The notes beneath the pieces are model-generated. The model did no database searches, was not told the DNA's origin, and saw only the letters and a program-made list of their open reading frames with translations. DNA of 64,000 nt from Escherichia phage JH2. Below are positions 18,929 to 39,087 of the stretch, in pieces (the stretch's first letter is position 1; each line of letters begins with the position of its first letter). The position numbers and the translations under genes were made by a program. The stretch lies in the sequence record KF055347. One strand, given 5' to 3'.

Positions 18929-19495
18929 TTACATAAACTTATTTTTCTTACAATTGTCAAAATGGTAACGAGTCATGTTACCAGCACCACCAGTCATGCC
19001 ACAATGAGGGCAAGTTTTCTTTTCCTTTGGCTTTTTCCCAGCTTCTGACATCTTCTTCCTTGTTTCTATAGACCTTTTACATCCTTTTGATTTTGTATTA
19101 CCTATTTGGGCTTCTCCTAACCGTCTTCGATGTTCTTCAGTGAAAACCCTACCTTTATTCACAATAGATAAAGCTTTCGAGTTTAAAGCCCTTATCTTTT
19201 CATAGTCTCTGGATGATATTTTCCTGTCTAGTCCATCATGAGCTAACCTGTGCCATGCAAACCATAACTTATGGTTGTCTGGATACATCTTAACCAGCAA
19301 TTTATGAGCTATATAATGCTCTCTAGGTGTAAGTAAAGCAATATTGTCTCCACTAATTTTATCACCACCTAAGCATACTGGTATAATATGGTGTCTTTCA
19401 TAACCTTTGCCTTGACATTTGTAGTATGTGAGAGGCACACCCCTTTCAGAATGTGCCTTCTTAATAATTGCATTATAGATTAGTTCGTAATTCAT
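18929..19495 (-). CDS. free-standing HNH homing endonuclease-like protein
   Basis: 188 aa; ERHHIIPVCLGGDKISGDNIALLTPREHYIAH is an HNH motif; lies between nrdD exon 2 and nrdG. Confidence 0.65.
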   Translation of the reverse strand: MNYELIYNAIIKKAHSERGVPLTYYKCQGKGYERHHIIPVCLGGDKISGDNIALLTPREHYIAHKLLVKMYPDNHKLWFAWHRLAHDGLDRKISSRDYEKIRALNSKALSIVNKGRVFTEEHRRRLGEAQIGNTKSKGCKRSIETRKKMSEAGKKPKEKKTCPHCGMTGGAGNMTRYHFDNCKKNKFM

Positions 19496-19502
19496 TTAGA
19501 TG

Positions 19503-20450
19503 CTACATAGAAACCCTATCCTTAATTTCTGCCATCTTAGCGTCATTCATTCGAGACTGACCTTTAATTTTTGTGAATGACAAGTACCCGCACACCCTGT
19601 TAATCACAGAGATATCATGTGAATGGCAAACCTCACATTCTTCAACATCAGCCTTTGGTCTGTTACCGCAATGCTCACAGATTGCTAAGTCAAAGTTAAG
19701 TCCCTGATAAAAACCTTTCAACATCCCTCTTGTAATACAACTTTTAAGTGCTGGTAAGTTTTCTGGGTTAGCTACCCTCACATACTGGATTCTGCCACCT
19801 CTACAGATATGGAAGAATGGCTCTTCTAAGTCCTGCTTCTCAAATGGTGAGATGTTTGCTGCAACATTCATATGGAAACTGTTTGTAAAGTATTCCTTGT
19901 CAGAGACACCTTTAATAACGCCAAACATATCTCTGAACTGTTTTAACTGAGTTCCACAAAGTGATTCTGCTGGAGTGCCATATACCGCATACAAGAAGCC
20001 ATCTTCGTTCTTAAACTCTTCAGTTTTCATGTTAATGTATGCCAGAACATCGTATGCAAAACTATAGCTTCCAACTTCATGAAGTCGTTTACCTTCAGCA
20101 AGAACAGACAACTCATCAAGAGCAGTAACCCCAAAAGAGGCTGTGAAAGACTTCACAATATCCCAGCCAACCTTGTCAGTAGGTTTCTTAGTCCCTTTGT
20201 ACAGACCACCTTGTGTGAATGCAAGAGGGTTAGAACTTGCTGGCATATTAGCAATCATCTCGTAGCGTTTCTTGTGGAAGCTGCGAATCATCTCTAGGTA
20301 CTTATCAAGCTCCTTCCAGAAATCTAAACCATTCTCTTTAGAATATTGGTAAATCATTGGTAAGTTCAAAGATACAGCACCAATGTTAGCACGACCTACA
20401 TAAAACTCTTCACCATCTTCGTTATGATATGGTGATAAGAACGCTCTACA
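19503..20450 (-). CDS. nrdD: anaerobic ribonucleoside-triphosphate reductase NrdD, exon 2
   Basis: reading frame is open upstream of the annotated Met to CRAFLSP at 20450, continuing T4 NrdD ..PMG/CRSFLS; contains TNSFH and C-terminal Cys cluster. Confidence 0.75.
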   Translation of the reverse strand, partial: CRAFLSPYHNEDGEEFYVGRANIGAVSLNLPMIYQYSKENGLDFWKELDKYLEMIRSFHKKRYEMIANMPASSNPLAFTQGGLYKGTKKPTDKVGWDIVKSFTASFGVTALDELSVLAEGKRLHEVGSYSFAYDVLAYINMKTEEFKNEDGFLYAVYGTPAESLCGTQLKQFRDMFGVIKGVSDKEYFTNSFHMNVAANISPFEKQDLEEPFFHICRGGRIQYVRVANPENLPALKSCITRGMLKGFYQGLNFDLAICEHCGNRPKADVEECEVCHSHDISVINRVCGYLSFTKIKGQSRMNDAKMAEIKDRVSM

Positions 20451-21192
20451 CTTGTTGTTCAGGTAAGTTCGCTACGCTTACCCCGCTTTATTCAAGCTGC
20501 TTACTGTCACCAGTAAGTCCAGACTATATCTTCTACTTATTTCTAAGTAGCGTACCATTTCGAGTCGCTTGACCCTACACCGCTACATTCATCACGGTTA
20601 GTCGTTCGGCATTTAAATGTACTCAAAATCATGTTCAAAGTTATTATGCTCTTTTACACACTTCAATATTGAAGAGATAGTCTTGCGATTATACCCAAGT
20701 ACATTAGATAACTCTCGTATTGACTTAGCAACAATAACTTCTTTTGTCACTTTATGTGTAGCCTTCACAGCATATGAACGCTTACAAAACTTGTAGCAAC
20801 CATTCTCATAGCCTTCTTTAACATTCTCAGAATGAGTTCCCCATTCTAAGTTAGAAGCATGGTTGTTCAGTTTGTTATCATCTTTGTGTTTTACAATTGG
20901 AAGATTGTTAGGGTTAGGTACATACTTTTCAGCAACTAACCTATGGACATACATGTCACGATTCTTCCTTCCATAAAACCTTACTTTCATATAACCAGTG
21001 TTGGATTTCCACTGCGTAAGTTCTACACCATTTTTCCTAAAGACTCTTCCGTCCTCAGTAACATGATAATTTGGCATGTAATACTCCTATTTTATATAGT
21101 TTCTTACATCGTACATCATTTAGCACAGGATTGTCTACACCTGTAGAGTTTCCCTGTTTAGGCACGTTTTAGATGAGCTATAGAGCTTGTTA
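20451..21192 (-). mobile_element. group I intron in nrdD carrying an HNH homing endonuclease ORF
   Basis: exon 1 ends ..ISPMG with a U then an in-frame stop; conserved core element AAGATATAGTC on the minus strand (plus 20522-20530); intron ends in G before TGT. Confidence 0.7.
20613..21077 (-). CDS. intron-encoded HNH-family homing endonuclease
   Basis: 154 aa; HKDDNKLNNHASNLEWGTHSEN is an HNH_3-type motif; located inside the nrdD intron. Confidence 0.65.
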   Translation of the reverse strand: MPNYHVTEDGRVFRKNGVELTQWKSNTGYMKVRFYGRKNRDMYVHRLVAEKYVPNPNNLPIVKHKDDNKLNNHASNLEWGTHSENVKEGYENGCYKFCKRSYAVKATHKVTKEVIVAKSIRELSNVLGYNRKTISSILKCVKEHNNFEHDFEYI

Positions 21193-22389
21193 ACCCATCG
21201 GTGAAATAACCTTACCAGAACGCTCAAAAGCCTCTGCTACAGCACCGTGACCAGATACACTTAAGAAATCTGGATACATTGCTTTAGAGCAACACTCAAC
21301 GGCTTTACTGTACAGGTGTCCTTGACAGATATTCTCATTGTGTCTCTTCTGGTCATGAATATAAACCAGTTTAGGGAATACAACAGGCTTCTTACTCTTA
21401 CCTTGTCCATTCATGCGAACATCAAGAATGGTGTTTGCAATCATGTATTGCAGTCGGTTGTCTTCATTAGACATATCTGAGTCAAGTAAACCAAATGTTA
21501 AAGTTGTGAATGCAAAATCACCACGGCTACAAGGTACAGTATTTAGTTTCATTTCGAGTGACTGGAAGCCTTGAGTTAATTCAATCTGTAGCTGCTCCAT
21601 GACATAATTATGGTAATGTTCTTTAGGAATACCGTAAGATGCTGCTTTCTCAGCATGATAGCGTAGAGACTTCTTAGCATACGGTACAAGCACCTTATCA
21701 ATCTCTGCTAAAGTAAATCCACCAAATTGCTGTGCAGTTGCTGAAAGAACTACATCACCGATAACTTGTAAGGCTGACAGTACAGACTTCGGTTCACAGT
21801 ATTCGATGCCAGACATTTCAAAGCCGCCTTTCAGTACTTTACCAATGTCAAACAAGCAACAGTTAATACCGCCAAAAATCAGGTCTCTCAAATCGTGGAT
21901 ATAGATAAACCCTTTTTCAATGGATTCAAGTTCCTCTGGTGTTAAATGGTACTGTTTAAAGATTTCTTTAGTCAGATAACCACGAATAATTGAACCTTTT
22001 GTAGAAATTAAACTACTGTCAAAGTTAGCATTTTCACGGTCACCTAAGAAGAGTGTGTCTTTAGTCTTTTGGTAAAGCTCATCCCAATTTTGAGCAACCT
22101 CTTTACGATAATTTCTATATGTTGAGTAAGACTCATAAATCTCGTGATTTACTTCTGCCAAAGCACCCTCAACAATACTGTGAATATCGTTTACTGAGAT
22201 GAGCAAATTATTCTGCTTAGTGGACTTTACCAGAATCCTCATAAATGCTGACTCAAGAGCTTGAGTAACATCTGGTGGAAGTTCTTTATAACCAACCCTG
22301 TTAGCTGACTTTGTGACTGCTGCTAAAACTTTTTTGATATCAGGTTCTTCGAGTGAGCCATTCTTTTTAATAATCTGTACTTTGTTCAT
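21193..22389 (-). CDS. nrdD: anaerobic ribonucleoside-triphosphate reductase NrdD, exon 1
   Basis: N-terminal ATP-cone-like region; IYIHDLRDLIFGGINCCLFD aligns with T4 NrdD HVHDIDY..NCCLVD; ends ISPMG. Confidence 0.75.
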
Positions 22390-22413: not shown

Positions 22414-22429
22414 GGTCTCCGAAGAGACC
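22414..22429 (-). terminator. terminator-like hairpin
   Basis: GGTCTC-CGAA-GAGACC followed by a T-run on the minus strand. Confidence 0.45.
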
Positions 22430-22644: not shown

Positions 22645-22879
22645 TATTCACCTCTGCCATAAAATTCTGTAGCGTCCCAACAGGTTTTAGGTTTTGTCCA
22701 TCAGTTTTCATGATGAATGGCATCTGACGAACTGGCATCTGTGCAATGTCCATTAATTCCGATAGCTCATAGTCCTGCCCTAACATTCTCACAACATGGT
22801 CAATACCACGAGCTTTTGCAAAATTCTTTGCAGTCTCACACTGATGGCATCCAGTTTTGGAATAAATTACATAAGTCAT
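22637..22879 (-). CDS. glutaredoxin-like protein (NrdH/NrdC-like redoxin)
   Basis: 80 aa; CHQC redox motif near the N-terminus; sits between RNR genes. Confidence 0.6.
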   Translation of the reverse strand: MTYVIYSKTGCHQCETAKNFAKARGIDHVVRMLGQDYELSELMDIAQMPVRQMPFIMKTDGQNLKPVGTLQNFMAEVNNA

Positions 22880-23952
22880 TAAGGAACCTCTAAAAATCCA
22901 CTATTCAAATCATCTACAACAGTATTCAATAAATACGCACCGTTCTGTTGCTCCTGATTAGCATTCTGCTCTTTATCAATTTCCATCTTCTTAATCATAT
23001 ACTTCAAAGGTGGTTCTTTAGGAGCTACAAAATCTCTGGGAATGCCAAACATATCATACAGTGGGGCAGCATTATAGTAAACCCACTCATGAAGAAGCTT
23101 TGTATTTAACCCAACTACAGCACGTCCTTCGGAGAAGATATAATACGACCATTTCTCTTCACTTTCAACTACTTCATCTAAGATTACTTTAATCTCTGGA
23201 AGAATTTGTTGGAAAGCTTTTTGCCACTCATCATCTCTTAAAGTTTCTTTTAAAACTTCAATATCAATTTTAGTGTGAAGGATTTCGTCAAGCATAATTT
23301 TCTGGACAGCTTGAGCAATACCTTGAAATTTATCTTGAGCATCAAGTGCAAAAGTACATGCAAAGGATGCCATAAAAGAAATACCTTCAAGTGCAGTCAC
23401 TGCAAATAGACCTTTTAGAATCACTTTATGGAAGTGTAAAGGGTCTTTGTCCAGAAGCGAGTCGCGGACATAACTCAGACGATAGTTTATACCTTCATCT
23501 AGTAATTCTTCAAGAACACGGTTCACAGTTTTTAATCGGTCTTGTACAGCAATGTTCTGGTTAATCTCATCTAAGATTGTTTCAGGATTTTTAATACATT
23601 GCCTTACAATCTCTGAGTAAGTAAGAGCATGTAGGTTTTCAATCTCAGACTGCTTCATAATTGCAGTTGCATAAATGTCATCAGAGATGAATGGTGCAAA
23701 GGCAAACGCTAAGCTCTTAGCAACTTGGGTATCTGCTTCCCACTGCCACTTAAGAATCTCAAGCATTACACCTGACATTGATGCTGGTACACTCTCAAAA
23801 TCAAGACGTGATTGTTCAAAAGGGAACTCATCTTCTGACCAGTCTTGTGCTTTTTGTTGTTTATATAGTTCAAAGATTTTTGGGTAGTGTTTATTAAGTG
23901 AGTCAAACGTCTTTCTCTCACCACCTAAAAAGATTGGGTGTTGGTTAATCAT
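22879..23952 (-). CDS. nrdB: ribonucleotide reductase class I small subunit
   Basis: di-iron ligand-like ExxH spacing (LDEILH); start at internal Met 23952 (MINQHPIF) has an AGGAG RBS and avoids overlap; longest ORF runs to 24012. Confidence 0.75.
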   Translation of the reverse strand: MINQHPIFLGGERKTFDSLNKHYPKIFELYKQQKAQDWSEDEFPFEQSRLDFESVPASMSGVMLEILKWQWEADTQVAKSLAFAFAPFISDDIYATAIMKQSEIENLHALTYSEIVRQCIKNPETILDEINQNIAVQDRLKTVNRVLEELLDEGINYRLSYVRDSLLDKDPLHFHKVILKGLFAVTALEGISFMASFACTFALDAQDKFQGIAQAVQKIMLDEILHTKIDIEVLKETLRDDEWQKAFQQILPEIKVILDEVVESEEKWSYYIFSEGRAVVGLNTKLLHEWVYYNAAPLYDMFGIPRDFVAPKEPPLKYMIKKMEIDKEQNANQEQQNGAYLLNTVVDDLNSGFLEVP

Positions 23953-24206
23953 AGTGTGATTTCTCCTTTCTTTATCATCTCTAAGGCTTGTTTTCTGTCT
24001 AAAACTTCCCAATTTTCTTTGTTAAACATCTCATAAGGTCTTGCGTAGATTTTACCATCTGCTGTAGAGATGTAAGAGATACCAGCAACCCATGAGTCAT
24101 CCTTTTGTTTTATCATCATATCTGTGCTACTCACATAGTACAGCGTTTTCCGAGGTTTATGGAGCAAATATATGGGCCACTCGTGATTTGCTATTAAGTC
24201 TTTCAT
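23949..24206 (-). CDS. hypothetical small protein between nrdA and nrdB
   Basis: ORF 23949..24290 trimmed to internal Met at 24206 (GGAGA RBS); stop overlaps nrdB start as ATGA. Confidence 0.35.
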   Translation of the reverse strand: MKDLIANHEWPIYLLHKPRKTLYYVSSTDMMIKQKDDSWVAGISYISTADGKIYARPYEMFNKENWEVLDRKQALEMIKKGEITL

Positions 24207-35328: not shown

Positions 35329-35585
35329 GTAAGCCTCTTTTAAGTAACTATTAAGTTTTAATCTTTTATCTTAACGTATTCTATACGTTATACTTTAAAG
35401 CTTTTTAAAAGCTATTAAATAATCTTTTAAGAGTTTTAAAGTATCTGTATAGTTAAACTGTTAAGTAACCTTTTAAGTAAAAACCCACTTCGCAAAGATT
35501 AACACCTTGTCAAGTACATTGTCAACTTGCTTTTTATAATTTTTTGCAGTAATGTATGTGGTTAATGATTTTAGAGGGAGTAAAA
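35329..35585. promoter_or_regulatory. divergent AT-rich intergenic control region
   Basis: 257 bp between divergent gene blocks; repeated CTTTTAAG motifs, duplicated TTGTCAA, TATAAT hexamer; GAGGGAG RBS before the polymerase start. Confidence 0.45.
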
Positions 35586-37728
35586 ATGGAAAACGTAGAT
35601 TTTAAAAACTTACATTTAGTTGGCGATACAGAAACTGATGGTTTACTCCTTGAGTTCACTAAAGTGCACGTAATGGCTTTCGCAGACTATAAATCTGACG
35701 ATGAAGAGCCACCTGTATGGGTCTTTACAGATGAGCCTATCCTCGGCCACAAGTATACCAAGTACATTAAAGGTGGTTTGCGTGAAGGTGTCGAGTTTGC
35801 GTTAAAGGCAAAACGGCTTTGCATCCATAATGGTCTGGGGTATGACTGGTGGGTTTTCAATCACATTGCACCTGATTTGTGGAACTTTGATAATCCAAAG
35901 TGTAAACCGTGGAGTAATTTCTTTCAGGATTCTCTTATCCAGTCTCGTGTTCAGTGGATGGATAGACCAACTCCAAAGGGTTATAAAGGTGCTCATGGTT
36001 TGGCTGCATGGGGTGCTCGTGTTGGTGTACGTAAACCAGAGATTGAACATTGGGGTGTGTGGAATGCAGAAATCTTCACTCGTGTTGTAGAAGATATCCG
36101 TATTAACGCCAAAACTAAACGTGCACTGGATAATGAATATCTCAAGCTGAAGAAGTGTGGCGTAGATACTTATGAAACCTACATGCGAGCTAAAGAAACA
36201 TCTTTCTGGATGAGTCAACAAGCTATCAATGGTTGGAAAGCTGATAAAGAACTTATGGAGTTCCATGTAAAGGAACTTGACAAGTTGACTAATGAGCTTG
36301 CTTCAGAAGTTGAACCACATCTTCCTCCAACTATTAAGACCAAAGGTAAAGTCACTGGAGAAGAGTTTGCAAAAGCTTGGAATGAGTATGTTGAAGCATT
36401 CGGTCATGCAGATGGACTGAAGAGAATTACCAAGTACCCTAAGACAAAGTATCGTCAGCAGGTACGTAACGGTGAGATGCAGACATATGAAATTAAGCCA
36501 TTTGGTAAGCCAACTACAAAGATTTTTAACATTGAAAAGCGGAATTGCTATACACCAACCAACTCTGTAACTGGTGAAGAGTACAAGGAAGGTTTTGTAG
36601 CAATGAAGGATGCTCGTGCAATTTGCAATGAGTTGAATGCAAAGATTGGTAAGAAATGCAAAGACTGGAAGCCAGTAAAAACAGTTAAAACTGTGAAGTA
36701 CTATAACAGTCATGTTGTGAACCACTTTGAGCTTGAGTCAAGTCGCTACACAGGTTTGATTGATGCACCATATACACCAATTGAGTTTGAAGTTTCTCGA
36801 ATGACTCAGGTGGCTGTTGTGAAGGACTACTTGAAATCAGTTGGTTGGATTCCTGATGACTGGAACTATAAGAAAGACTCTGATGGTCGTCCTGTTAAGG
36901 TTTGTCGTTTCAAAGACAACAAAAAGATGATTACCAAACATCCTAAATGGGATGAGATGGTTGAACGGTGCGGTTTGAGTTATGTTGAACATGAAGGTGT
37001 ACAGTACATTGAGCATAACTGGTCTGTTAAGAAGTACACAGATTTGCTTGAACCTTGCTTAATCCGTACTTCACCAAAACTTACTGAATCATCTTATGAT
37101 ACGATTGAAGGTGAGCTTGGGCAGAAGATTGCAAAATACTATACCTTGATGCACAGACGCAGAACTATTGAGAACTCAAAGGATGATGAAAAAGGTTGGT
37201 TAAACCAGATTCGTCCTGATGGTCGCCTTAGTGCTGGTGCAATGGTGTTTGGTACTTCAACTGGACGTATGACACAATATGGTATTGTAAACGTACCGTC
37301 TGGCGCTGCTGTCTATGGAGCACCCATGAGGGAAGTTTGGACTTGTGAAGAGGGTACTAATATTGTTTCAGCCGACATGAATAGCGCCCAACTTGTGCTG
37401 CTGTGTAACTTTATGGGTGATAAAGATTTCACTAAAGCGGTGACAGAGGGTAAAGAAGAGGTTGAGTTTGTCAAACAAGAGGATGGTAGATACTATTGCA
37501 AACATTTTAACCAGTATCTAAACCCAGCTATTGACAAGTATTTACATTATGATTCTGAAAATGACTTATACGTGGTGTACTCAGGGACTGATGCACATAC
37601 TTTAAACAGTATCTACTTCAGCCTTAATAAAGAGGAAGACATCTTGACATGTCGAGCTACTCAGGATGCAAATCTTCTTCAAGAAATTAGTAAAGGCCGT
37701 AAGAAAGCCAAAAATGGCATTTATGCGT
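35586..37728 (+). CDS. DNA polymerase family A, exon 1 (3-prime-5-prime exonuclease plus polymerase through first half of motif B)
   Basis: Exo I motif LVGDTETDGL; ends ..RKKAKNGIY inside motif B; start moved to ATG 35586 with RBS. Confidence 0.75.
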
Positions 37729-38530
37729 CAGTGGCGCATGTAAAACGTTGTGAATTGCTGGAAGCCTAAGTCTGTAAAGATATGGTAATCAGCAGCGAAG
37801 TCTCTGTTAGGACTCCTAAAACAAAGGAGAGAGACAATGGCAGGTTACGAAGAGAGATTATGCACTGAGTGTGGTACGGAGTTTAAACCATATCAATACA
37901 ATCAGAAACGGTGCAGAAGTTGTGTATTAAAGTTTGACAGAAGGGCAGAACACAGGGTTCTTACTAAGAAATGCCCTAGTTGTGAGAAGGTGTTCATGCC
38001 GAGAACAGCAAGGCAAGTTTATTGTTCGTCACATTGCGGTGAGAAAGGTAGAGTTAAGAATTACTACCTAAGAACATATGGATTGGAAAGAGAAGAGGTT
38101 GAGTCTCTACTCCGTGACTGTGATTACAAATGTCAAATTTGTGGCGGCGAAGGTTTTATCATGAATGGTTCACGACACAAGGCTAAACTTGTTGTTGACC
38201 ATGACCATAAAACCGGAAAGGTAAGAGGTATGTTATGCCACAATTGCAACAGAGCTTTGGGGTTGCTTGCAGATAGTGTTGATAACATGCAAAGAGCGAT
38301 TGACTATCTAAGCAAATGATATAACTATAGAGATTCCTAACAGAGAAACGTTCAGAGACTATCGAAAAGCATACTTAACGTATGAACTGAGTAGAGTAGG
38401 GTGGTAAGCTAATGACCATCCCCAAGTGCAACGGTAGCATCACTGCTACGTGATATAGTCCGACACTCCGTAGAAATGCGGAGAAGTTCATAAGAGAACT
38501 GGTACACCTTGCGAGTGTATTGACCAGATG
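37729..38530 (+). mobile_element. group I intron in the DNA polymerase gene carrying an EndoVII-type HNH ORF
   Basis: polymerase motif B split (..KNGIY / ..LFGAGDEKFAK); exon 1 ends in U at 37728; intron ends in G at 38530; conserved GATATAGTCC at 38452-38461; boundaries inferred. Confidence 0.65.
37837..38319 (+). CDS. intron-encoded HNH endonuclease, endonuclease VII-like
   Basis: 160 aa; VVDHDHKTGKVRGMLCHNCNRALG typical of EndoVII-type HNH; several CxxC pairs; good RBS. Confidence 0.65.
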   Translation: MAGYEERLCTECGTEFKPYQYNQKRCRSCVLKFDRRAEHRVLTKKCPSCEKVFMPRTARQVYCSSHCGEKGRVKNYYLRTYGLEREEVESLLRDCDYKCQICGGEGFIMNGSRHKAKLVVDHDHKTGKVRGMLCHNCNRALGLLADSVDNMQRAIDYLSK

Positions 38531-39087
38531 TATTGTTCGGGGCTGGCGATGAGAAATTTGCTAAGACGATTAAAGCATCTACAACTGAGGAAGGTGCTTT
38601 AACTAAGCAAACATACTTTGTACGTCTCCCTAAAATTAAGAAGTTGATAGATAATTTAGAAGCAGACTTCAAAGCCACTAAGAAGGCTCTTGAAGAGGTA
38701 TTTGGTAAGACTGCCGCAATCTCTAAAGGGGGGTTTGTAAAGGTTGCTGGAGCTTGGTTGTGGTGTAAATCTCCACATAAGTTATTGAATTATTTGCTTA
38801 TGGGTTCGGAAAGTCAGGTTCAGAATGAAGCCATCAACCTCGCTTGTAGAAGAACTTGTGAAGAGGGTCTTACAAAGTTGAATGGTCGAAAACCAGCTAT
38901 TGGCGCTAGATTGCTTTTAGCATATCACGATGAGAATAGTTGGGAGTGTCCAGAAGACATGACGCAGGATGTTAAAGCAGTAATTGACTGGATGTATGGT
39001 CAAGCATCAAGAAATTTAGGGCTTAAGGAGGAAACTCTCGTAACTGGCACTGGTAAAGTTGGTAAAAATTGGCTTGAGGTACACTGA
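38531..39087 (+). CDS. DNA polymerase family A, exon 2 (second half of motif B through C-terminus)
   Basis: begins LFGAGDEKFAK aligning with T7 gp5 ..YGAGDEKIG; no ATG start, consistent with an exon. Confidence 0.7.

What the first reader, a model, noticed from the sequence alone, without database searches (positions are those of the whole stretch)
20451..21192. nrdD is split by a ~740-nt group I intron carrying an HNH homing endonuclease
The NrdD reading frame stops right after ..ISPMG at 21193 and resumes at 20450 with CRAFLSP, matching the contiguous T4 NrdD segment ..PMG-CRSFLS. The intervening sequence contains an HNH ORF and, 3-prime of it, the conserved core motif AAGATATAGTC. The 5-prime exon ends in U and the intron ends in G.
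Basis: partly seen in the sequence, partly recalled or inferred. Interest (0 to 1): 0.6.

Follow-up and report, generated by a model that had tools for sequence, protein, structure and literature searches.

The report
Self-splicing intron splitting phage nrdD

Summary
On the minus strand, nrdD exon 1 (22389..21193) ends ..ISPMG/ggU. A 742-nt insert (21192..20451) follows, and exon 2 (20450..19503) resumes with CRAFLSP. The joined 714-aa protein aligns without a gap to solved NrdD structures across PMG|CRSF.

The insert is a T4 td/sunY-like subgroup IA group I intron. It has P1 with a U·G pair at the splice site, P10, P3 to P9.2 with P7.1/P7.2, and a terminal G. This structure is 93% paired in 10 homologues, with compensatory changes in 42 of 77 pairs.

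An I-HmuI-like HNH gene (21077..20613) sits in loop L6a. It is under purifying selection (dN/dS about 0.05).

Felix O1-like phages show all stages of the element: an empty site, intron with HNH, and two independent HNH-deleted introns. The HNH-deleted copies pass Rfam's group I threshold.

Homologous introns occupy the same site in JSE, phi92, rV5-like and Vibrio phages. The T4 nrdD intron lies about 110 codons upstream and carries a different endonuclease.

Splicing and cleavage are inferred, not shown. The literature I could search notes only a "split nrdD". Verdict: new member of a known kind, modest interest.

The parts
21193..22389 (-). nrdD exon 1 (399 codons: ATP-cone plus the N-terminal half of NrdD), ending ..ISPMG with U at 21193
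   Evidence: ORF list. Pfam ATP-cone and NRDD profile positions 1-250. Contiguous alignment to 1h78 and 9d3x.
20451..21192 (-). Group I intron, 742 nt, subgroup IA (td/sunY-like). Starts UAA (in-frame stop) and ends with the terminal G at 20451.
   Evidence: Rfam RF00028 sub-threshold hits. Orthologues pass the gathering score. About 71% identity of the 3' core to the T4 td intron. Covariation.
21173..21185 (-). Internal guide sequence. CUCUAUA (21185..21179) pairs with the 3' exon UGUAGAG (P10). GCUCAU (21178..21173) pairs with the 5' exon AUGGGU (P1, U·G at the splice site).
   Evidence: Sequence complementarity checked by script. P1 is 88% paired in 10 homologues.
21111..21166 (-). 5' half of the core: P3 5' strand (21166..21161), P4-P5-P4' (21157..21125), P6 5' strand (21124..21123), P6a 5' strand (21117..21111)
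   Evidence: Rfam hit to model positions 60-138. Helix coordinates. P3, P4, P5 and P6a all show compensatory changes.
20613..21077 (-). I-HmuI-like HNH homing-endonuclease ORF (154 aa) in loop L6a, with SD AGGAG 7 nt upstream. Its last codons (GAG UAC AUU UAA) form the 3' strand of P6a.
   Evidence: Pfam HNH_3. PDB 1u3e at E = 1.6e-9. phrog_59 at E = 1.3e-42. dN/dS 0.05-0.08.
20451..20622 (-). 3' half of the core: P6a', P6', P7 (20603..20599 with 20526..20522), P7.1, P7.2, P3' (20556..20551), P8 (GAAA loop), J8/7-P7' AAGAUAUAGUC (20532..20522), P9 (GUGA loop), P9.1, P9.2, terminal G
   Evidence: Blastn to the td intron.
19503..20450 (-). nrdD exon 2 (315 codons plus stop), beginning with the finger-loop Cys codon UGU. 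It contains the Zn-site cysteines and the glycyl-radical region (..NRVCGYL..).
   Evidence: Pfam NRDD profile positions 264-560 and Gly_radical. Alignment to NrdD structures. There is no ATG/GTG/TTG between the in-frame TAG in the intron and TTG 20369.

Best explanation
The phage's nrdD gene (class III anaerobic ribonucleotide reductase, a Felixounavirus gene) is interrupted by a mobile, self-splicing subgroup IA group I intron.

**Splicing (inferred).** After transcription the intron folds into the P3-P9 ribozyme core. The guide sequence GCUCAU pairs with the exon end AUGGGU (P1, U·G at the cleavage site). An exogenous guanosine attacks the 5' splice site. The adjacent guide segment CUCUAUA aligns the 3' exon UGUAGAG (P10). 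The freed exon 3'-OH then attacks after the terminal G (20451), ligating ..PMG to CRAFLS.. and restoring an intact 714-aa NrdD. The in-frame UAA at the first intron codon stops ribosomes at the intron border.

**Mobility (inferred).** The intron carries, in loop L6a, a 154-aa I-HmuI-type HNH endonuclease. In mixed infections this enzyme presumably nicks or cuts intron-less nrdD alleles near the G399|C400 codon boundary. Repair from the intron-containing allele then copies the intron and flanking exon sequence into the empty site (homing).

**Shown here:** the anatomy, the homology, the covariation, purifying selection on both exons, the ORF and the RNA core, and the natural presence/absence alleles.

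**Inferred:** the splicing chemistry, the endonuclease activity and target, and homing.
For: 1. **Exact junction.** The spliced protein aligns without a gap to T4 NrdD and 9d3x. Intron-less Felix O1 nrdD is colinear with the spliced sequence.
2. **Group I identity.** RF00028 hits at E = 2.6e-7. ORF-less orthologues EC6 (97.8% identical core) and phi92 exceed the Rfam gathering score, at 53.6 and 70.6 against 50 bits. The 3' core is about 71% identical to the T4 td intron.
3. **Structure.** The model has 77 pairs in 15 helices, 93.2% paired over 10 homologues. Of these, 42 pairs have changes on both sides. No shuffle out of 500 reached this, and slid controls gave 32-40% paired. P1 and P10 lie contiguously on the guide sequence.
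4. **Function retained.** dN/dS of spliced nrdD is 0.03-0.07 among intron-containing and intron-less alleles. For the HNH ORF it is 0.05-0.08. The RNA core has only 6-7 differences in 277 nt, against 26-51 in 465 nt of the ORF.
5. **Splicing is needed.** No start codon lies upstream of the Cys codon in exon 2, so an unspliced product could not contain the finger-loop cysteine.
6. **Mobility signature.**
   - Empty site, intron with HNH, and two different HNH-deletion derivatives (316 nt and 292 nt) coexist among Felix O1-like phages.
   - Exon divergence between intron-containing and intron-less alleles peaks at the junction, at 14-16 per 100 nt against about 6 elsewhere.
   - Homologous intron-plus-HNH units sit at the same site in JSE, SD2/phi92, a Vequintavirus and Vibrio phage F96. 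Their NrdD is only 29-36% identical to this one, while the intron cores are 67-73% identical and the HNH proteins 41-53%.
7. **Endonuclease family.** The HNH protein matches I-HmuI (1u3e) at E = 1.6e-9, with the H..N..N residues aligned.
Against: - There is no experimental evidence of splicing or cleavage for this element.
- The window copy itself is below Rfam's gathering score (35.7 against 50 bits).
- P2 is absent, as it also is in the T4 sunY intron.
- P7 and P6 are invariant, so covariation neither supports nor contradicts them.
- P10 is only 69% paired across the alignment. Part of this is because td and the Aeromonas intron have other exons.
- The HNH protein is 9-19 residues shorter at the N terminus and 5 shorter at the C terminus than its relatives, so reduced activity cannot be excluded.
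- The junction divergence peak rests on three genomes.
Confidence: 0.93

Rival explanations
1. Genes-in-pieces: the HNH gene simply split nrdD into two separately translated polypeptides that reassemble, as in Aeromonas phage Aeh1 nrdA split by mobE, with no RNA splicing.
For: GenBank records of related phages annotate two separate nrdD CDS plus an endonuclease. The UAB_Phi87 paper describes only a 'split gene' (PMC4837284). The Aeh1 precedent is cited in PMC3653736.
Against: The intervening sequence has a full, covarying group I core with P1 and P10. ORF-less copies of the same insert persist and pass the Rfam threshold, which this model does not explain. Exon 2 has no start codon or RBS before the essential Cys codon: the first start is TTG, 27 codons downstream. 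The RNA core is far more conserved than synonymous sites.
Confidence: 0.03
2. The intron is a dead relic and nrdD is a disrupted pseudogene in this phage. Class Ia NrdAB, encoded just upstream, would suffice.
For: The window copy scores below the Rfam gathering threshold. nrdB lies next door at 22879..24012. The phage also has other routes to dNTPs.
Against: Both exons keep intact frames with dN/dS of 0.03-0.05 between intron-containing genomes (WIN, Si3, skuden, EC6). All core helices are intact in the window copy. The RNA core is under strong constraint. The sub-threshold score is explained by the ORF inserted in L6a.
Confidence: 0.03
3. The intron splices but is no longer mobile: the HNH protein has been domesticated (for example as a maturase or regulator) or is inactive.
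For: The protein is shorter at both ends than its JSE, F96 and SD2 homologues. The C-terminal NUMOD1/HTH match is weak (E = 0.039, below the cut-off). ORF-deleted introns persist, so the ORF is dispensable for splicing.
Against: The ORF has strong purifying selection (dN/dS 0.05-0.08 with dS up to 0.65). The catalytic H..N..N residues align with I-HmuI. The patchy distribution and the junction-centred exon divergence fit ongoing homing.
Confidence: 0.12

Closest known systems
Phage T4 td intron with I-TevI (subgroup IA2 group I intron)
   Same: The core architecture matches: P3-P9.2 with P7.1/P7.2, GNRA-capped P9, and J8/7-P7 AGAUAUAGUC. The 3' core is about 71% identical and the whole core about 64%. 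Both have the endonuclease ORF in loop L6a and an in-frame UAA directly after GGU at the 5' splice site.
   Different: The host gene differs (thymidylate synthase). td has a P2 hairpin that is absent here. Its ORF is a GIY-YIG enzyme, not HNH.
Phage T4 nrdD (sunY) intron with I-TevII
   Same: The host gene is the same. The guide sequence GCUCAU is identical and P2 is missing in both. Core identity through P9 is 75%, the closest non-cognate relative found.
   Different: The insertion site differs: T4 has ..QAYEY|EVN.. after nt 538 of the CDS, about 110 codons upstream. T4's ORF is the GIY-YIG I-TevII, placed 3' of P9 rather than in L6a.
Same-site nrdD introns of phi92/SD2 (Justusliebigvirus), a Vequintavirus (record 'Campylobacter phage A140'), JSE (Krischvirus) and Vibrio phage F96
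   Same: The insertion point is identical (..ATGGGT|TGY..). The cores are homologous (67-73%). Where an ORF is present, it is a homologous I-HmuI-like HNH ORF in L6a, 41-53% identical. The phi92 GenBank record already annotates a 'spliced variant'.
   Different: The host NrdD proteins are only 29-36% identical to this one. In those phages the HNH ORF reads on through P6'/J6-7/P7 (..EMPND*), while here it stops 5 codons earlier. phi92 has lost the ORF.
I-HmuI (Bacillus phage SPO1 DNA-polymerase intron HNH nicking endonuclease, PDB 1U3E)
   Same: The N-terminal DNA-binding region plus the HNH motif align over residues 3-114 at E = 1.6e-9. Both are encoded in a phage group I intron.
   Different: Sequence identity is low and the host gene and target differ. 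The C-terminal DNA-binding module matches NUMOD1 only weakly. Whether this enzyme nicks one strand as I-HmuI does is untested.

Membership tests
Group I catalytic intron (Rfam RF00028) | Covariance-model match at or above the curated gathering score | tested here: inconclusive
   The window copy scores 35.7 bits (E = 2.6e-7) plus 17.7 bits for the P4-P6 half, against a cut-off of 50, because a 465-nt ORF splits the core. Orthologues with the ORF deleted pass: EC6 (97.8% identical core) at 53.6 bits and phi92 at 70.6 bits.
Group I catalytic intron | Conserved core helices P3-P8 and P4-P6 with a P7 pseudoknot, supported by covariation | tested here: met
   93.2% of cells are paired, 42 of 77 pairs have double changes, and slid controls give 32-40% paired. 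P3, P4, P5, P6a, P7.1, P7.2, P8, P9, P9.1 and P9.2 all covary. P6 and P7 are invariant.
Group I catalytic intron | 5' splice site after a U that forms a U·G wobble in P1 with the internal guide sequence; P10 with the 3' exon | tested here: met
   Exon AUGGGU pairs with GCUCAU (intron 15-20), placing U(-1)·G15. CUCUAUA (intron 8-14) pairs with the 3' exon UGUAGAG, and the two are contiguous on the guide.
Group I catalytic intron | Terminal guanosine as the last intron nucleotide | tested here: met
   The intron ends ..AACAACAAG at 20451. Shifting the boundary by one base would end the intron in U.
Group I catalytic intron | Guanosine-dependent self-splicing | not testable with these tools
   Requires in vitro transcription with GTP labelling, or RT-PCR from infected cells.
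Subgroup IA (T4 td/nrdB/sunY type) | Extra helices P7.1 and P7.2 between P7 and P3', with a peripheral P9.1/P9.2 | tested here: met
   P7.1 (ACCG/CGGU) and P7.2 (GGGUC/GACUC) are 97-100% paired with compensatory changes. The sequence is homologous to the td and sunY introns. The T4 record calls the sunY intron 'group 1A'. P2 is absent, as in sunY.
HNH homing endonuclease, I-HmuI-like (Pfam HNH_3) | HNH_3 domain above the gathering score, with catalytic His and Asn residues present | tested here: met
   PF13392 scores 40.2 bits against 24.8. In the 1u3e alignment..VKHKDDNKLNNHASNLEWGTHSEN.. aligns to ..VDHKDGNKDNNLSTNLRWVTQKIN...
HNH homing endonuclease, I-HmuI-like | Site-specific nicking or cleavage of the intron-less allele, and intron homing | not testable with these tools
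   The support is indirect only: patchy presence/absence, degenerate ORF-less copies, a divergence peak at the junction, and purifying selection.
Class III ribonucleotide reductase NrdD | Full-length NRDD domain with the finger-loop Cys and the C-terminal glycyl-radical region after exon joining | tested here: met
   PF13597 profile positions 1-250 lie in exon 1 and 264-560 in exon 2, with Gly_radical in exon 2. The protein aligns at E = 5e-77 and 5e-75 to 9d3x and 1h78, contiguous across PMG|C. [quoted passage not shown]

The most novel reading that the evidence does not exclude
The introns at the two nrdD sites may be one ribozyme lineage that transposed between two positions of the same gene. 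The two sites are the T4 sunY site (..UAUGAGU|) and this finger-loop Cys site (..GAUGGGU|). Both introns use the identical guide sequence GCUCAU, which pairs with AUGAGU or AUGGGU. Both lack P2, and their cores are about 75% identical. They carry unrelated endonucleases (GIY-YIG after P9, HNH in L6a). This would be a natural example of ectopic intron movement guided by P1 pairing (reverse splicing or illegitimate repair), followed by independent endonuclease-gene invasion.
Probability: 0.3. Interest if true: 0.5.

Novelty: new member of a known kind. Interest (0 to 1): 0.3.

Why it matters
This is mainly a matter of annotation and natural history.

- **Annotation.** Dozens of Felix O1-like phage genomes, several of them biocontrol or therapy candidates, annotate nrdD as two truncated genes plus an endonuclease. 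The correct product is one spliced 714-aa enzyme.
- **Homing-endonuclease life cycle.** This phage group shows the whole cycle in one place: an empty site, an invaded site, and two independent endonuclease deletions.
- **Spread between phage groups.** The same intron-plus-HNH unit has spread between five very different phage groups at one site, directly before the radical-carrying cysteine codon.
- **Experimental system.** Felix O1 crossed with an intron-carrying relative gives a convenient system outside T4 for studying homing by I-HmuI-type enzymes and the link between translation and splicing.

It does not change any concept.

Tried and rejected
- **Rfam at gathering threshold** on the whole window found nothing. 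The ORF in L6a explains this, and the E-value mode and ORF-less orthologues resolved it.
- **An RBS-sequestering hairpin** upstream of the HNH start, as in the T4 intron endonuclease genes: the local fold is no better than shuffles (z = -0.14), so I make no such claim.
- **Sigma-70 promoter and terminator scan** of the region: fewer promoter-like hits than in shuffles, and nothing usable inside the intron.
- **Same site as the T4 nrdD intron?** Rejected: T4's intron lies after nt 538 of the CDS.
- **Intein.** Rejected: a stop codon follows the junction immediately, and the ORF is separate with its own SD.
- **Literature.** The searches found no description of this element as a group I intron. 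They found only 'split nrdD' (PMC4837284), 'two introns' listed without location in a Felixounavirus (PMC9951933), and a statement that Felix O1 itself has no introns (PMC3185647), which is correct for nrdD.
- **Two searches failed on term length**. One search for 'Cys290' returned nothing. The C290 numbering therefore comes from counting residues in the 1h78 alignment.

Full report
**Identity of the window.** The region is 93-96% identical to Felix O1-like Salmonella and Escherichia phages (Felixounavirus, Ounavirinae) such as BPS15S6, Si3 and Mushroom. The local gene order on the minus strand is nrdB (24012..22879), glutaredoxin, a small membrane ORF, nrdD, then a free-standing homing endonuclease.

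**Observation.**
- Exon 1 (22389..21193) ends ..VISPMG with GGT at 21195..21193, and TAA follows at once.
- Exon 2 starts at 20450 with TGT AGA GCG TTC TTA TCA CCA (CRAFLSP) and runs to the stop at 19503.
- The insert is 742 nt, begins after a U and ends in G.
- It contains a 154-aa ORF (21077..20613) with a Pfam HNH_3 domain.
- It contains AAGATATAGTC at 20532..20522.
- Joining the exons gives a 714-aa protein. Pfam NRDD profile positions 1-250 fall in exon 1 and 264-560 in exon 2.
- That protein aligns without interruption to the solved NrdD structures 9d3x (E = 5e-77) and T4 1h78 (E = 5e-75) across ..SPMG|CRSFLS...
- Counting along the 1h78 alignment puts the junction between G289 and C290 of T4 NrdD. 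This is directly before the finger-loop cysteine that starts the radical chemistry, two residues after the finger-loop methionine. The roles of these residues come from PMC4493059. The numbering is my count.

**Nature of the insert.**
- Rfam's group I model matches both halves of the insert: 20785..20500 at 35.7 bits and E = 2.6e-7, and 21157..21083 at 17.7 bits on model positions 60-138, the P4-P6 region. The match stays below the 50-bit gathering score, and the reason is visible in the alignment: the ORF interrupts the model.
- The same intron with its ORF deleted passes the threshold. Phage EC6 (core 97.8% identical) scores 53.6 bits and phi92 scores 70.6 bits.
- Blastn shows the 3' 160 nt to be about 71% identical to the 3' core of the T4 td intron. 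It is also related to introns in many other phages.

**Secondary structure.** Using td and sunY as guides, I derived a full structure in intron numbering (coordinates):

| Element | Sequence or position |
|---|---|
| P10 | 8-14 CUCUAUA with 3' exon UGUAGAG |
| P1 | 15-20 GCUCAU with 5' exon AUGGGU (U·G at the splice site) |
| P2 | absent |
| P3 | 27-32 with 637-642 |
| P4 | 36-41 with 63-68 |
| P5 | 46-50 with 55-59 |
| P6 | 69-70 with 583-584 |
| P6a | 76-82 with 571-577, enclosing the ORF |
| P7 | 590-594 with 667-671 |
| P7.1, P7.2 | present |
| P8 | GAAA loop |
| P9 | GUGA loop |
| P9.1, P9.2 | present |
| terminal G | position 742 |

- I tested this structure on an alignment of 10 cores: this window, EC6, RPN213, phi92, a Vequintavirus, Vibrio phage F96, T4 td, an Aeromonas terminase intron, T4 sunY and a sunY variant.
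- 93.2% of cells are standard pairs, and 42 of 77 pairs show changes on both sides.
- No shuffle out of 500 reached these values, and sliding the 3' partners by 1-3 columns drops pairing to 32-40%.
- P6 and P7 are invariant, so they are neither supported nor contradicted.
- The P7.1/P7.2 pair and the homology to the T4 introns place this intron in subgroup IA. The T4 record calls sunY 'group 1A'.

**Evidence that the element functions.**
- Both exons, the ORF and the RNA core are under selection. dN/dS of spliced nrdD is 0.03-0.07 in all comparisons, including those between intron-carrying genomes. For the HNH ORF it is 0.05-0.08, with dS up to 0.65.
- The non-coding intron parts differ at only 6-7 of 277 positions, while the ORF differs at 26-51 of 465.
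- Exon 2 has no ATG, GTG or TTG between an in-frame TAG in the intron and TTG 20369, 27 codons past the junction. Without splicing, no product could contain the catalytic cysteine. This argues against the 'genes in pieces' alternative known from Aeh1 nrdA/mobE (PMC3653736).

**The endonuclease.**
- The ORF matches I-HmuI, the strand-specific nicking endonuclease of the SPO1 DNA-polymerase intron. The PDB 1u3e match has E = 1.6e-9 over residues 3-114, and the catalytic H..N..N positions align.
- It also matches phrog_59 (E = 1e-42).
- A C-terminal NUMOD1/HTH-like match is weak (E = 0.039).
- The ORF has an AGGAG 7 nt upstream of its ATG. I found no significant RBS-sequestering hairpin.

**Population picture among Felix O1-like genomes.**
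- *Empty site.* A spliced-junction probe finds a contiguous, intron-less nrdD in Felix O1 itself and many others.
- *Intron with HNH.* The full 742-nt intron is present in about 59 records.
- *ORF-less introns.* Shorter introns occur in others. EC6, DE7 and REP5 (316 nt) keep only the first 3 and last roughly 9 codons of the ORF. RPN213 (292 nt) keeps only the 3' end. These are two independent deletions.
- *Junction divergence.* Exon divergence between intron-carrying alleles and Felix O1 peaks in the 100-nt windows flanking the junction, at 14-16 differences against about 6 elsewhere. Two intron-carrying alleles differ there by only 1-7. All Felix-type intron alleles read TGT AGA at the 3' exon where Felix O1 has TGC AGA. 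This is what co-conversion during homing would leave, although it rests on few genomes.

**Wider distribution.**
- Homologous introns sit at exactly this position (..ATGGGT|TGY..) in four other groups:
  - JSE (a T4-like Krischvirus; 760 nt, HNH 53% identical).
  - phi92 (ORF-less, 279 nt, already annotated 'spliced variant') and SD2 (with ORF).
  - A Vequintavirus deposited as 'Campylobacter phage A140'.
  - Vibrio phage F96.

- Their NrdD proteins are only 29-36% identical to this one. The intron cores are 67-73% identical and the HNH proteins 41-53%. This fits horizontal spread of the intron-endonuclease unit.
- In those relatives the ORF reads through P6', J6/7 and P7 (..EMPND*). Here a UAA stops it five codons earlier.

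**Relation to T4.**
- T4's own nrdD (sunY) intron is at another site, after nt 538 of the CDS (..QAYEY|EVN..). It carries the GIY-YIG I-TevII downstream of P9.
- Even so, it has the identical guide sequence GCUCAU, which pairs with AUGAGU there and AUGGGU here. It also lacks P2, and it is the closest non-cognate core, 75% identical through P9.
- One ribozyme lineage having moved between two sites of nrdD is therefore possible but unproven.

**Literature.**
- The Felix O1 genome paper reports no introns (PMC3185647), which is consistent with its empty site.
- The UAB_Phi87 paper notes a 'split gene (nrdD)' interrupted by a homing endonuclease 53% identical to a JSE protein, but never calls it an intron (PMC4837284).
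- A Felixounavirus paper lists 'two introns' among ncRNAs without location (PMC9951933).
- I found no structural or experimental description.

**Verdict.** It is a new, well-populated member of a classical family, the phage subgroup IA introns in nucleotide-metabolism genes. Splicing and homing are inferred from anatomy, conservation and population pattern, and need RT-PCR, GTP labelling, and nicking and cross experiments. Interest is modest at 0.3.

Noticed in passing
window 37768-38533 (+ strand), within 35556-39087: There is a probable second group I intron in the family-A DNA polymerase gene. The ORF 35556..37769 ends ..GCC-TAA. Next comes an Endonuclease_7-type ORF of 160 aa (37837..38319; PF02945, E = 1e-19). 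The polymerase then resumes at about 38534 with a DNA_pol_A C-terminal match. Rfam RF00028 gives a sub-threshold hit at 37756..37846 (24.6 bits). R-like GTTCAGAGACTATCG and S-like GTGATATAGTCCG elements follow the ORF. Related phages have this region with the ORF, without the ORF, or only the downstream exon matching.
   Followed up: partly
window 18929-19495 (- strand): A free-standing HNH plus NUMOD3 homing endonuclease (188 aa; phrog_655 at E = 9e-57) lies 8 nt downstream of the nrdD stop. mobC occupies the same relative position between nrdD and nrdG in T4. It is absent from Felix O1 and EC6 at this position.
   Followed up: partly
L001 1701-2016 (EC6) and L007 401-692 (RPN213): There are two independent deletion derivatives of the HNH gene inside otherwise intact introns. 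EC6 keeps a 12-codon mini-ORF (MPNNFEYEFEYI*). RPN213 keeps only the ORF's 3' end and has no start. Together with the empty sites, these show the full homing-endonuclease gain, decay and loss cycle in one phage genus.
   Followed up: yes
L004 (Vibrio phage F96) 225-1383 and 1888-2706: The nrdD of this phage is cut into at least three pieces by two intervening sequences, each with an HNH ORF (310 aa and 168 aa). The second is the homologue of the intron studied here. The first was not analysed.
   Followed up: no
public records MG065674 (L010) and MG065664: Records named 'Campylobacter phage A140' and 'A132' are, by sequence and taxonomy line, a Vequintavirus and a Felix O1-like genome. The names are misleading. 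Most Felixounavirus records annotate nrdD as two CDS, with the second started at an internal TTG or ATG that omits the catalytic Cys.
   Followed up: no
window 22414-22429: A GC-rich palindromic hairpin (GGTCTC-TTCG-GAGACC) is followed by a T-run on both strands, about 25 nt upstream of the nrdD start codon. It is a terminator-like element between the small membrane ORF and nrdD.
   Followed up: no
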